The notes under the pieces: model-generated | What the model was told of the DNA's origin: nothing | Database searches by the model: none | The model's input: the letters and a program-made list of their open reading frames with translations, nothing else | Assembly (NCBI RefSeq): GCF_003334765.1 | Contig: NZ_QOWT01000001.1 | From: Escherichia coli | GTDB taxonomy: Bacteria; Pseudomonadota; Gammaproteobacteria; Enterobacterales; Enterobacteriaceae | Length of the DNA: 64,000 bases | Direction: 5' to 3' (one strand) | In this document: piece by piece, positions 7,135 to 9,357 of the stretch | Numbering within the stretch: position 1 is the stretch's first letter | Layout of the letters: every line of letters starts with the position of its first letter | Made by a program: the position numbers and the translations under genes

Positions 7135-9357
7135 TTAGTCCTCGTTTACAACCTTCTGCTGGGCGGCTTTTTTGGCCTGAGCGCGGGCAATAGCCGCGGC
7201 AACTGCCGCTTTGCGCGGATCAACCTGTTCTTCTGGTACCGCATTAGCCTGTTGCTGTTCCAGCTTGCGTGCTTTGGCGCGTGCAATAGCCGCTTCGACG
7301 GCAGCTTTGCGCGGATCAACCTGTTCTTCTGGCTCCGCATTAGCCGGTTGCTGTTCCCGTTTGCGCGCTTTGGCTCGGGCAATAGCGGCTTCGACGGCGG
7401 CTTTGCGCGGATCGACCTGTTGTTCTGGCTCGGCATTAGCCTGTTGCTGTTCCAGCTTGCGTGCTTTGGCACGGGCAATAGCGGCTTCGACGGCGGCTTT
7501 GCGCGGATCGACCTGTTCTTCTGGTTCCGCATTAGCCTGTTGCTGTTCCAGCTTGCGCGCTTTGGCACGGGCAATAGCGGCTTCGACGGCGGCTTTGCGC
7601 GGATCGACCTGTTGTTCTGGTTCCGCATTAGCCTGTTGCTGTTCCAGCTTGCGCGCTTTGGCGCGGGCGATAGCTGCTTCAACGGCAGTTTTACGTGGAT
7701 CAGCAACGGTTGCTGCGTCGTTAGTTTGCTGCAGTTCTGCCTGTTTCGCTCTGGCTTGCGCTTTACGGGCTTCCCGTGCTGCAATAATTGCACTGTTATC
7801 CGGGCGTTCGCCCGCTTTAATCACAATAGGCTGTGTAGCCTGGGCCTGTTTCTCTTTCACCCGCGCCAGAGCGGCAGCAATCGCATCTTTATCTTTGGCT
7901 GCAGGTTGAACGGCTGCGCTCTTATGTCGTTCAAGGCGAGCCGCTTTTTCGCGCTCCAGACGAGCCTGGCGCGCTTCGAAACGCGCTTTGGCTTCTGCGG
8001 CGCGCTTTTCTTCCTGACGAATAGCCGCAATTTCAGCTTTTTCCTGACGGAAATATTGCACCAGGGGAATATTGCTCGGGCAAACCCACGCGCAAGCCCC
8101 ACATTCAATGCAATCAGCAATGTTATGCGTGGTAGCTTTATCGTGTTGCTGACCTTTGCTGAACCAGTACAACTGTTGCGGCAAAAGATCCGCAGGGCAG
8201 GCGTCAGCACAGGCGCTACACCGGATGCAGCTTTGTTCTTCCTGTGGTTCGCCAAGTTCATTGGCAGAGGGAGCCAACAGACAGTTGGTAATCTTTACGA
8301 CCGGGACATCCAGCCATGGCAAGGTAAAGCCCATTAGCGGGCCACCCATAATCACCATTTGATCGGCAGAGGGGCAGAATCCGGCATCATTCAATAAATG
8401 ACGCACTGGCGTCCCCAGCCGTGCCCAGACGTTGCCCGGGCGAGCGATTGCTTCGCCAGTCAGGGTTACAACACGCTCGGTAATCGGCTCGCCATCAATA
8501 ACGGCACGTTTCACTGCATAAGCAGTGCCGACGTTTTGCATTAATACGCCGATATCGGATGAACGCCCGCCATGTGGAACCTGCTTCCCGGTCAGAATGT
8601 AGGTTAATTGTTTAGCACCGCCAGAAGGATATTTGGTTGGAATCACCCGCAGAGAAATATCGTTAGAGTCCGCCAGCACCGCGCGCAGCATGGAAATCGC
8701 CTGCGGTTTGTTATCTTCAATGCCGATAAGAATTTCGCGTGGCTGCAGAATATGCGCAAGAATGCGAATACCCTCTACGACCTGAGCCGCGCAATCCTGC
8801 ATCAAACGGTCATCGGCGGTAATGTACGGCTCGCACTCAGCCGCGTTGATAATCAACGTTTCAATCTTATCTCCGCCACCCTGCAATTTAACGCCTGTCG
8901 GGAATCCTGCACCGCCCAGCCCGGCAACACCAAACTGATGTATGCGCTCGATTAACTCTTCGCGACTGCGAGTGCGATAATCGGCCCAGCCGTCGCGCGG
9001 GATCCAGCAGTCTTCACCATCGGCATCAATAATCACGCTTAATTCAGCTAAAGCTGAAGGATGAGCCGTAGAGTGGGGCGCAATAGCCGTAACGGTACCC
9101 GAGGTGGGCGCGTGAACAGGCAGCATTTTGCCGCGACCACGGGTAAGCGGCTGGCCGCGCAATACTTTATCGCCGACGCTAACGCACAACTCACCTTCAG
9201 CGCCAATATGCTGTTTCAGTGGAATAACAAAACGCTGCGCCAGGGGTACCTGGCGCAGGGGTGTACCGTTGGACTGGGTTTTCATCTCCGGTGGATGGAT
9301 GCCGCCGTTGAAATCCCAGATTTTATTTTTTCTGAATGCAGAGAATAACTTAAGCAT
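7135..9357 (-). CDS. rsxC: Rsx/Rnf electron transport complex subunit C
   Basis: 740 aa; N-terminal RnfC barrel-sandwich/NADH-binding region, two 4Fe-4S ferredoxin motifs ([24 protein letters not shown]), C-terminal 32-aa tandem repeats. Confidence 0.92.
7165..7720. repeat. 96-bp in-frame tandem repeat array, about 5.5 copies, inside the rsxC 3' region
   Basis: The gcgcggatc(a/g)acctg landmark recurs at 7213, 7309, 7405, 7501 and 7597 (period 96 bp), with degenerate flanking copies; encodes repeated [10 protein letters not shown](Q/E)[21 protein letters not shown]. Confidence 0.9.

What the first reader, a model, noticed from the sequence alone, without database searches (positions are those of the whole stretch)
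7165..7720. Perfectly phased 96-bp tandem repeat inside rsxC encoding a 32-residue Lys/Ala/Glu-rich module
Five to six tandem copies, with landmarks at 7213, 7309, 7405, 7501 and 7597, encode [10 protein letters not shown](Q/E)[21 protein letters not shown]-type repeats in the RsxC C-terminal tail. Long, highly identical in-frame repeats are hot spots for replication slippage and for assembly errors, so the copy number, and hence protein length, is likely strain-variable. The repeat also generates the long spurious antisense ORFs in the track. Function of this tail is unknown to me.
Basis: seen in the sequence. Interest (0 to 1): 0.35.

Follow-up and report, generated by a model that had tools for sequence, protein, structure and literature searches.

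The report
Variable 96-bp repeat in rsxC tail
The repeat is real: an in-frame 96-bp minisatellite in the E. coli rsxC gene, already used for strain typing as MLVA locus ms11, which encodes a string of identical short positively charged helices whose strict conservation across distant bacteria points to an unknown binding function.

Summary
Window 7181-7702 holds a 96-bp tandem repeat (5.4 copies, 91% match, no indels). It lies on the minus strand in the 3' third of rsxC (7135-9357, 740 aa). It encodes five 32-aa units plus a degenerate terminal unit, each starting with DPRK.

Copy number does vary between strains. A rank-spread sample of 59 complete E. coli genomes has 3-8 DPRK units, and RsxC lengths of 644-806 aa were seen, all in frame. 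This is not new. The locus is MLVA marker ms11 (Gorgé 2008), whose primers match the window exactly. RsxC repeat typing was published for E. coli (2026) and Erwinia amylovora (2023).

Each unit is an 18-aa cationic, alanine-rich helix ([18 protein letters not shown], charge +4) followed by an acidic, disordered spacer.
- The helix is identical in 225 of 256 internal units from 73 Enterobacteriaceae species.
- 97% of its between-species codon differences are synonymous.
- It recurs as [16 protein letters not shown] in Vibrio, Pseudoalteromonas and other Alteromonadales RnfC, with unrelated spacers.
- It was found only in RnfC tails.

The most likely function, which is inferred and not shown, is a multivalent tether next to the acidic RsxB subunit. 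The partner is unknown.

The parts
7135..9357 (-). rsxC coding sequence (740 aa plus stop). The catalytic core is aa 1-445 and the C-terminal tail is aa 446-740.
   Evidence: ORF list. NCBIfam NF003454 RsxC equivalog at 868 bits and TIGR01945. Pfam RnfC_N, Complex1_51K, SLBB and Fer4 all end by aa 430, with nothing in the tail. PDB RnfC chains 8ahx_C, 7zc6_C and 9eri_C align only to aa 14-498.
7222..7701 (-). Five full 96-bp units encoding 32 aa each. Unit 1 is 7606-7701, unit 2 is 7510-7605, unit 3 is 7414-7509, unit 4 is 7318-7413 and unit 5 is 7222-7317. In each unit the 54 nt at the higher coordinates encode the helix motif DPRK(A/T)[13 protein letters not shown] and the 42 nt at the lower coordinates encode the spacer (L/R)EQQ(Q/P)ANA(E/V)PE(E/Q)QV.
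   Evidence: TRF. Unit coordinates and translations. Among the five units, motif codon differences are 48 synonymous to 4 non-synonymous, and spacer differences are 14 to 18.
7138..7221 (-). Degenerate terminal unit [28 protein letters not shown], the conserved C-terminus of RsxC. The stop codon is 7135-7137.
   Evidence: The terminal-unit consensus is conserved in 77 species loci.
7909..8064 (-). Long helix following the ferredoxin domain (aa 432-483), the base of the tail.
   Evidence: AlphaFold2 predicts helix 432-483, with block pLDDT 83-96 to aa 480 and 57 for aa 481-490. It aligns to the C-terminal region of A. vinelandii RnfC 8ahx_C. [quoted passage not shown]
7846..7896 (-). Older motif-like element [17 protein letters not shown] (aa 488-504).
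   Evidence: Conserved in the 81-sequence alignment: A495, L497, A498, R499 and K503 are nearly invariant and A496 is invariant. Present in distant RnfC as AALARVKAK. Predicted helix 486-506.
7744..7803 (-). Conserved tail element [20 protein letters not shown] (aa 519-538). It contains I525, the site of the rsxC-I525F allele of an evolved strain.
   Evidence: Predicted helix 522-547. The mutation is reported in PMC4759930.
7087..7106 (+). Exact match to the MLVA ms11 reverse primer CTGGCGCTGGTTATGGGTAT, which lies in rsxD.
   Evidence: The primer sequence is from PMC8215070 Table 1.
7833..7852 (-). Exact match to the MLVA ms11 forward primer GAAACAGGCCCAGGCTACAC. The amplicon 7087-7852 is 766 bp.
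   Evidence: ms11 is listed with a 96-bp unit and amplicons of 718-958 bp.
7030..8337 (+). Spurious antisense ORF (435 aa) kept open by the repeat. A second antisense ORF lies at 7211-7909 (+), and an alternative-frame ORF lies at 7146-7793 (-).
   Evidence: ORF list. There are no stop codons in 4 of 6 frames across 7222-7701. The alternative minus-strand frame appears in databases only as a frameshifted RsxC (P0011).

Best explanation
SHOWN. This is an in-frame 96-bp minisatellite in the 3' third of rsxC, the cytoplasmic NAD(P)H-side subunit of the RsxABCDGE (Rnf-type) membrane redox complex. It is the same locus as MLVA marker ms11. Each unit encodes an 18-residue, alanine-rich helix with net charge +4 ([18 protein letters not shown], with an Asp-Pro start) followed by a 14-residue, proline-containing spacer with net charge about -3. 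Whole units are gained or lost, so the reading frame is always kept. E. coli alleles carry 3-8 units. Unit number is uniform within clonal lineages and differs between them. Selection acts on the helix and not on the spacer: the helix peptide is nearly invariant across Enterobacteriaceae while its codons drift synonymously. The same helix, with unrelated acidic spacers (unit period 27-55 aa in the examples examined), is found in RnfC of Vibrio, Pseudoalteromonas, Rheinheimera and other Alteromonadales.

INFERRED. Units are gained and lost by unequal recombination or replication slippage between units that share exact tracts of up to 55 bp.

INFERRED, about 0.3-0.35 for the specific function. 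The tail is a flexible, multivalent tether. A long helix (aa 432-483) seats it next to the acidic RsxB subunit, as in A. vinelandii Rnf. The string of autonomously folding cationic helices on anionic spacers then provides several weak, identical docking sites for an anionic partner. Candidates are the mobile ferredoxin domain of RsxB itself, acidic electron carriers such as flavodoxin or ferredoxin, or nucleic acid near DNA-bound clients such as SoxR. Unit number would set avidity or reach.
For: Repeat and frame.

Gene identity.

ms11 identity: both primers match exactly.

Polymorphism:
- Spans differ from the K-12-like span by -288, -96, 0, +96 and +192 bp, with small 3- or 6-bp extras, in a rank-spread sample of 59 genomes. 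Unit counts were 3 (1 genome), 5 (9), 6 (37), 7 (7) and 8 (5).
- Intact annotated CDSs of 644-806 aa.
- Published typing schemes.

Selection:
- 225 of 256 internal motifs in 73 species are identical.
- All four Ala codons are used at each Ala position.
- Between-species codon differences in the motif are 299,559 synonymous to 8,573 non-synonymous, that is 2.8% non-synonymous.
- Within the window, motif differences are 48:4 and spacer differences are 14:18.
- Spacer amino-acid identity is 0.68 within a protein and 0.43 between species, and spacer length is 12-87 aa.

Deep conservation and exclusivity:
- An exhaustive HMMER search of 1.84 billion representatives gave 132 hits. Of those inspected, all were RnfC proteins or tail fragments except three unrelated repeat proteins.
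- Named taxa are listed.

Structure:
- AlphaFold2 gives a helix at every motif (block pLDDT about 70-80 at most units, lower at the fourth) and a disordered spacer (pLDDT below 50).
- The helix at 432-483 is confident.
- The A. vinelandii homologue of that helix contacts RnfB and RnfH.

Charge: the RsxB soluble part has net charge -10 and pI 4.6. The tail from aa 446 to 740 has net charge +16.

Exact tracts for recombination: the longest in-register exact runs are 55 bp at a 96-bp offset and 53 bp at a 192-bp offset.
Against: No partner was identified, and nothing here tests binding. The motif has no match in the PDB (best E = 0.42, spurious), in Pfam or in phage genomes. No paper found discusses the function of the tail.

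Rnf complexes with solved structures work without such a tail (C. tetanomorphum RnfC 435 aa, A. woodii 443 aa). E. amylovora strains with zero internal repeats exist. The array is therefore not essential for the core redox function.

The motif census used a regular expression, which inflates the apparent invariance somewhat. The simpler DPR[KR] count gave the same periods.

The E. coli copy-number sample is spread by rank and is not random. The pLDDT of the tail helices reflects local helix propensity and is not evidence of docking.
Confidence: 0.8

Rival explanations
1. A neutral, tolerated minisatellite. The array has no function of its own. Units expand and contract in a dispensable disordered tail, and the protein similarity of the units reflects only recent duplication and homogenisation.
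For: Copy number varies 3-8 in E. coli and 0-5 in E. amylovora with no known phenotype. Rnf complexes with solved structures lack the tail. Spacers are homogenised within each protein (0.68 identity within a protein, 0.43 between species).
Against: Motif codons have diverged widely, with all synonymous codons in use, while the peptide is invariant: only 2.8% of codon differences between species are non-synonymous. The same helix survives across Enterobacterales, Vibrionales and Alteromonadales while the spacers are completely replaced. In this window the synonymous to non-synonymous counts are 48:4 in the motif and 14:18 in the spacer.
Confidence: 0.07
2. Membrane-surface anchor. The cationic helices lie on the anionic inner-membrane surface and hold or position the peripheral RsxC subunit or the whole complex.
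For: Each helix carries +4 charge and there are several copies. RsxC has no transmembrane segment and sits at the membrane (PMC9588780).
Against: The hydrophobic moment is low (0.15-0.23) and the mean hydrophobicity is negative. The basic residues are spread all around the helix wheel and not on one face. RnfC is already fixed to RnfD by the arms of RnfD. Acidic spacers would be repelled by an anionic membrane.
Confidence: 0.1
3. Self-association. The alternating +4 and -3 charge blocks make the tail a blocky polyampholyte, which either folds back on itself or cross-links neighbouring Rsx complexes into clusters.
For: The strict alternation of cationic helix and anionic spacer is retained in every lineage even though the spacer sequence is not.
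Against: A purely electrostatic role would not require invariance of V7, I11 and the alanines.
Confidence: 0.1
4. The functional unit is at the nucleic-acid level, for example an antisense gene, a small RNA or a regulatory DNA repeat, and not the RsxC peptide.
For: Long ORFs are open on the opposite strand and in a second frame.
Against: The substitution pattern is that of a protein read in the rsxC frame. No Rfam family matches: the best hit is isrG at 13.9 bits against a gathering score of 100, E = 0.58. The alternative frame turns up in databases only as a frameshifted RsxC (P0011) or in error-laden reads. The open frames follow from an Ala/Gln/Glu-rich unit without stop-generating codons.
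Confidence: 0.02

Closest known systems
VNTR locus ms11 of the Shigella/E. coli MLVA panel (Gorgé et al. 2008, J Clin Microbiol 46:1026; used in PMC8215070 and others)
   Same: It is the same locus. Both primers match the window exactly at 7087-7106 and 7833-7852, the unit size is 96 bp, and the 766-bp amplicon falls within the published 718-958 bp range.
   Different: None at the DNA level. In the MLVA paper read here (PMC8215070) it is treated as an anonymous size marker, with no mention of rsxC or of the encoded peptide.
RsxC repeat typing in E. coli (PMC13185298, 2026) and the 40-aa RsxC repeat of Erwinia amylovora (PMC10587187, 2023)
   Same: The same gene and the same DPRK-initiated unit. 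Copy-number polymorphism is used for genotyping (4-7 units in 83 E. coli strains; 0-5 in E. amylovora).
   Different: Those papers count units and leave function open. The sample here extends the E. coli range to 3-8 units. It also separates a selected 18-aa helix from a free spacer and traces the helix to Vibrionales and Alteromonadales.
C-terminal elongated helix of Azotobacter vinelandii RnfC (PDB 8AHX; Zhang and Einsle 2024, as summarised in PMC12174285)
   Same: E. coli aa 432-483 aligns to it and is predicted as one confident helix. In A. vinelandii it contacts RnfB and RnfH, and its function is stated to be not understood.
   Different: A. vinelandii RnfC ends at 496 aa, with a short Lys/Ala/Glu-rich stub and no DPRK helix array.
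Multivalent linker proteins built of tandem short helical binding motifs on disordered spacers (for example EPYC1 of the algal pyrenoid and CsoS2 of carboxysomes; from general knowledge)
   Same: The architecture is shared: identical short helices under selection, variable spacers, and copy number that evolves.
   Different: Those proteins have a demonstrated partner (Rubisco) and drive condensation. No partner is known here, and the array is attached to a membrane enzyme subunit. This is an analogy only. Membership was not tested.
Alanine-based monomeric helices and Lys/Ala-rich histone-H1-like or TolA-domain-II-like segments (from general knowledge)
   Same: Ala-rich sequence with interspersed Lys and Arg, and a high intrinsic helix propensity.
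   Different: The RsxC helix is short, capped by Asp-Pro, carries invariant Val and Ile, and alternates with acidic spacers. It is not a continuous basic or ER/K-type helix.

Membership tests
RsxC/RnfC subunit of Rnf-type complexes (NF003454, TIGR01945) | RnfC_N barrel-sandwich domain, NuoF-like FMN domain (Complex1_51K), SLBB domain and a C-terminal 2x[4Fe-4S] ferredoxin domain | tested here: met
   Pfam hits at aa 14-115, 139-283, 296-344 and 376-430. NF003454 scores 868 bits against a cut-off of 345. E = 1.9e-121 to 8ahx_C.
RsxC/RnfC subunit of Rnf-type complexes (NF003454, TIGR01945) | Position in an rsx/rnf ABCDGE operon | tested here: met
   The minus-strand ORFs at 9928-10509, 9350-9928, 7135-9357, 6076-7134, 5452-6072 and 4753-5448 are followed by nth at 4118-4753. 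RefSeq annotation of the identical region names rsxB, C, D, G and E.
VNTR/minisatellite used in MLVA (ms11) | Published primers flank the array and the unit size is 96 bp | tested here: met
VNTR/minisatellite used in MLVA (ms11) | Copy number differs among isolates by whole units | tested here: met
   Span differences of -288, -96, +96 and +192 bp. Unit-by-unit translations of six alleles.
Phase-variable contingency locus (simple-sequence repeat switching a gene on and off) | Unit length not a multiple of three (or promoter spacing), so that copy changes switch expression | tested here: not met
   The unit is 96 bp, or 32 codons. All seven alleles read are intact and in frame. Copy number is uniform within clonal lineages.
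Membrane-targeting amphipathic helix | High hydrophobic moment with a hydrophobic face of large residues | tested here: not met
Multivalent short-motif linker/tether (EPYC1/CsoS2-like architecture) | Tandem identical short helices under selection, separated by variable disordered spacers | tested here: met
Multivalent short-motif linker/tether (EPYC1/CsoS2-like architecture) | A defined binding partner contacted by each motif | not testable with these tools
   No multimer prediction or interaction data were available. The literature searches found none.
Bacterial microcompartment encapsulation peptide | An amphipathic helix of about 18 aa on a linker, encoded in or near a microcompartment locus | tested here: not met
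   Amphipathicity is low. The neighbours in the window and in four distant loci are rnf genes and nth, with no shell-protein genes.

The most novel reading that the evidence does not exclude
The rsxC minisatellite is a natural rheostat. The invariant cationic helix is a specific docking motif for an anionic partner at the electron-entry or electron-exit side of the complex. Candidates are the mobile ferredoxin domain of RsxB, flavodoxin or ferredoxin, or nucleic acid next to DNA-bound [Fe-S] clients such as SoxR or the co-transcribed Nth. The 3-8 copy alleles would then quantitatively tune how fast a lineage resets its SoxRS oxidative-stress response. That would make an old typing marker a functional polymorphism.
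Probability: 0.2. Interest if true: 0.6.

Novelty: already known. Interest (0 to 1): 0.27.

Why it matters
The repeat itself is a long-used typing marker, and it is a trap for short-read assembly and annotation. Contigs end inside it, and frameshifts are hidden because a second frame stays open. The open point is the function. The helix is conserved at the peptide level across Enterobacterales, Vibrionales and Alteromonadales, yet no paper found assigns it a function. It sits on the subunit of the complex that re-reduces SoxR. If the number of helices affects Rsx activity, natural alleles would differ in oxidative-stress reset, which is relevant to redox-cycling drugs and antibiotic tolerance. 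The reported correlations of unit number with virulence and resistance gene content (PMC13185298) could then be tested for causality, as opposed to reflecting lineage.

Tried and rejected
- PDB sequence search with three units gave only spurious hits (best E = 0.42).
- Pfam has no domain in aa 446-740.
- The NCBIfam RsxC model stops at aa 570, inside the first unit.
- A tblastn search of three units against 50,697 phage records gave no match.
- An Rfam scan of 6500-8500 at E <= 1 gave only a sub-threshold isrG hit, which was rejected.
- Three non-RnfC hits of the exhaustive protein search (P0065, P0066, P0109) were inspected and rejected as unrelated repeat proteins. P0044 and P0103 are error-laden translations of rsxC tails.
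- Literature searches for a tail function or interactors found nothing on the tail (RnfC with C-terminal/extension, RnfC with disordered, RsxC with interact, RsxC with SoxR and two-hybrid, the motif string, ydgN with tandem repeat).
- Lee et al. 2022 (PubMed 35344189), on Rsx-SoxR components, is not held in the library.
- The rsxC mentions in the EF-P and omega-subunit papers concern a NusA-dependent terminator 16 nt downstream of a PPE polyproline motif, not this repeat. The only PPE in RsxC is at aa 22-24.
- A second AlphaFold job on a fused RsxB-RsxC or motif-partner construct was considered and dropped. The tool returns no coordinates or contacts, and partner sequences such as FldA and SoxR are not in the window.
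- An exact census of all 5,426 genomes was not possible, because the search tool lists at most 60 rows.
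Full report
OBSERVATION

Tandem Repeats Finder reports a single array at 7181-7702 with period 96, 5.4 copies, 91% matches and no indels. Self-identity is 0.91 at lag 96, 0.90 at lag 192 and 0.88 at lag 288, against 0.27 +/- 0.05 at other lags.

The array lies on the minus strand inside the 740-aa ORF at 7135-9357. Translated in that frame, it gives five 32-aa units starting at aa 553, 585, 617, 649 and 681, plus a degenerate terminal unit at aa 713-740. Each unit begins with DPRK. The exact unit boundaries are 7222-7701 for the full units and 7138-7221 for the terminal unit.

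GENE AND CONTEXT

The ORF is RsxC. It scores 868 bits against the NCBIfam equivalog NF003454 (cut-off 345) and also matches TIGR01945. Pfam finds RnfC_N, Complex1_51K, SLBB and the 2x[4Fe-4S] domain, all ending by aa 430. It aligns to the solved RnfC chains 8ahx_C, 7zc6_C and 9eri_C only over aa 14-498.

The neighbours are rsxA, rsxB, rsxD, rsxG, rsxE and nth (RefSeq annotation of identical regions). The tail from aa 446 to 740 has no Pfam domain and no solved relative. Three units searched against the PDB gave only spurious hits.

POPULATION VARIATION AND PRIOR KNOWLEDGE

A query made of the two flanks alone found the locus in 5,425 of 5,426 complete E. coli genomes. In a rank-spread sample of 59 genomes, the flank-to-flank span differed from the K-12-like span as follows:

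| Span difference (bp) | DPRK units, terminal one included | Genomes |
|---|---|---|
| -288 | 3 | 1 |
| -96 or -93 | 5 | 9 |
| 0 or +6 | 6 | 37 |
| +96 or +102 | 7 | 7 |
| +198 | 8 | 5 |

Six alleles were read in full. The annotated RsxC proteins are intact and 644, 708, 709, 742, 772 and 806 aa long. Whole units are gained or lost, and some spacers also switch between QQQ and QQQQ.

None of this is new. The primers of MLVA locus ms11 (96-bp unit; panel of Gorgé et al. 2008) match the window exactly at 7087-7106 and 7833-7852, giving a 766-bp amplicon. A 2026 paper types 83 E. coli genomes by RsxC repeat number (PMC13185298). A 2023 paper does the same for a 40-aa RsxC repeat in Erwinia amylovora (PMC10587187).

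In the 2026 table, unit type is uniform within ST11 and within ST21. In my sample, all three O157:H7 genomes and all K-12, C600 and BL21 records share their respective spans. The locus is therefore a slowly changing minisatellite and not a hypermutable switch.

ASSEMBLY AND ANNOTATION SIDE EFFECTS

- Seven of 80 species-representative assemblies end inside the array.
- Two complete E. coli records start or end at the array.
- Four of the six reading frames have no stop codon across the array. This explains the 435-aa and 232-aa antisense ORFs and the 215-aa alternative-frame ORF.
- One database protein (P0011) is an E. coli RsxC frameshifted into that alternative frame. It still reaches 736 aa, so its length alone does not reveal the error.

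ANATOMY OF THE UNIT

In 73 complete RsxC proteins from different Enterobacteriaceae species, the array has 2-7 motif copies, with unit periods mostly 30-48 aa. The variation in period comes entirely from the spacer.

The first 18 residues, [18 protein letters not shown], are identical in 225 of 256 internal units. The spacer is 12-87 aa (median 14), rich in Ala, Glu, Gln, Pro and Val, and has a mean charge of -2.9, against +4.0 for the motif.

At the DNA level the motif is far from identical. All four alanine codons are used at every alanine position. Motif DNA identity is 0.82 between species, and 97.2% of between-species codon differences are synonymous. Within this window's five units, synonymous to non-synonymous codon differences are 48:4 in the motif and 14:18 in the spacer.

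Spacers are more alike within a protein (0.68 identity) than between species (0.43), which is the signature of concerted evolution. One caveat applies: motifs were collected with a permissive regular expression, which removes badly diverged copies. The simpler DPR[KR] count gave the same periods.

DEEP CONSERVATION AND EXCLUSIVITY

An exhaustive HMMER search of the tail against 1.84 billion representative proteins gave only 132 hits at E <= 0.001. The full-length hits all carry an RnfC core that is 41-73% identical to E. coli (one is the 100%-identical frameshifted E. coli allele). The short hits I inspected are tail fragments, and three inspected hits are unrelated repeat proteins.

The distant RnfC proteins carry up to 11 copies of K(K/S)[17 protein letters not shown], with completely different, consistently acidic spacers (unit period 27-55 aa in the examples examined). 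In the four loci examined they lie in rnfABCDGE-nth operons, as in the window. Clusters at 90% identity from Pseudoalteromonas (820-890 aa) and Erwinia (773-1013 aa) also vary in length.

Two further tail elements are conserved. They are [17 protein letters not shown] (aa 488-504) and [20 protein letters not shown] (aa 519-538). The second contains I525. An I525F allele arose in an evolved strain and behaved like a deletion or a neutral change (PMC4759930).

STRUCTURE AND PHYSICAL CHEMISTRY

AlphaFold2 with an 81-sequence alignment gave mean pLDDT 77.5.
- The core is modelled confidently.
- One long helix covers aa 432-483 (block pLDDT 83-96 to aa 480).
- Further helices cover aa 486-506 and 522-547.
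- There is then one helix per unit, mostly about 22 residues (16 at the fourth unit); block pLDDT is about 70-80 at most units and lower at the fourth.
- The helices are separated by spacers with pLDDT below 50.

The motif has a low hydrophobic moment (0.15-0.23) and its basic residues point in all directions around the helix. The soluble part of RsxB is strongly acidic (net -10, pI 4.6). The tail from aa 446 to 740 carries +16.

MECHANISM

Shown:
- The array encodes repeated helix-plus-spacer units.
- Unit number changes by whole units and stays in frame.
- The helix peptide is under strong purifying selection while the spacer is free in sequence and length but stays acidic.
- The motif was found only in RnfC tails, across Enterobacterales, Vibrionales and Alteromonadales.

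Inferred: copy-number change happens by unequal recombination or slippage. Units share in-register exact tracts of up to 55 bp at a one-unit offset and 53 bp at a two-unit offset.

Inferred, with about 0.3-0.35 probability for the specific function: the tail is a flexible multivalent tether. Its base is seated beside RsxB, and its identical cationic helices offer several weak docking sites for an anionic partner. Candidates are the mobile ferredoxin domain of RsxB, acidic flavodoxin or ferredoxin, or nucleic acid near DNA-bound clients such as SoxR. Copy number would set avidity or reach.

Rivals:
- Membrane-surface binding is disfavoured by the low amphipathicity and the acidic spacers.
- Charge-block self-association or clustering does not explain the invariance of Val, Ile and the alanines.
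- A neutral minisatellite is contradicted by the substitution pattern.
- A nucleic-acid-level element is contradicted by the coding-frame substitution pattern and by the absence of any Rfam match.

The array is not needed for core Rnf chemistry. Solved Rnf complexes lack it, and E. amylovora strains with no internal repeat exist.

COMPARISON, NOVELTY AND SCORE

The locus is MLVA ms11 and is the subject of the 2023 and 2026 RsxC-repeat papers, so the finding as written is already known.

No paper found by the searches makes the following points: the split of the unit into a selected 18-aa helix and a free acidic spacer, the persistence of the helix in Vibrionales and Alteromonadales, and its restriction to RnfC tails.

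The architecture resembles multivalent short-motif linker proteins. Membership cannot be claimed without a partner. It fails the tests for a phase-variable contingency locus, a membrane-targeting helix and a microcompartment encapsulation peptide.

Interest is modest at 0.27. A specialist would not be surprised by the repeat or by its polymorphism. The unexplained, strongly conserved helix array on the SoxR-reducing complex is a small, tractable open question.

Noticed in passing
window 7146-7793 (minus strand, alternative frame); protein P0011: A database E. coli RsxC (P0011, core 100% identical) is frameshifted near aa 524 into the second open frame of the repeat and still reaches 736 aa. 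Frameshift errors or pseudogenes at this locus are therefore not betrayed by protein length.
   Followed up: partly
L081, L085, L086 (E. coli alleles), spacer of the 32-aa unit; window equivalent for example 7630-7641: There is a nested glutamine-codon microsatellite. Some units have QQQQ in place of QQQ, giving 33-aa units and RsxC lengths of 709, 742 and 806 aa.
   Followed up: partly
L006, L012, L025, L056, L072, L075, L079; records NZ_CP081008.1 and NZ_OZ392464.1: Seven of 80 species-representative assemblies stop inside the rsxC array. Two complete E. coli records begin or end at it, and one of them annotates the remnant as a hypothetical protein.
   Followed up: partly
window 7744-7803 (aa 519-538, [20 protein letters not shown]): A non-repeated tail element is conserved even in distant RnfC, including one protein where it lies after the repeats. 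The rsxC-I525F allele selected in a phosphate-starvation evolution experiment (PMC4759930) falls in it and behaved as null or neutral.
   Followed up: no
window 4118-4753 (nth) and loci L087-L090: Endonuclease III (nth, a [4Fe-4S] DNA repair enzyme) directly follows rnfE/rsxE in the window and in all four distant tail-bearing rnf operons examined. Whether the RnfC tail co-occurs with nth linkage was not surveyed.
   Followed up: no
window 9350-9928 (rsxB) versus 7135-8022 (rsxC tail): There is a strong charge complementarity. The RsxB soluble part has net charge -10 (pI 4.6), and the RsxC tail from aa 446 to 740 has net charge +16.
   Followed up: partly
window about 9286-9294 (rsxC aa 22-24, the only PPE in RsxC): The literature describes a NusA-dependent intrinsic terminator inside rsxC, 16 nt downstream of a PPE polyproline motif and sensitive to EF-P and the RNAP omega subunit (PMC5021804, PMC13192885). 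The only PPE in RsxC is at aa 22-24. The terminator is unrelated to the repeat and was not mapped in the window.
   Followed up: no
protein clusters of P0018 (Pseudoalteromonas) and P0016 (Erwinia): Members of single 90%-identity clusters differ in length (820-890 aa and 773-1013 aa). RnfC tail length polymorphism is therefore not confined to E. coli.
   Followed up: no
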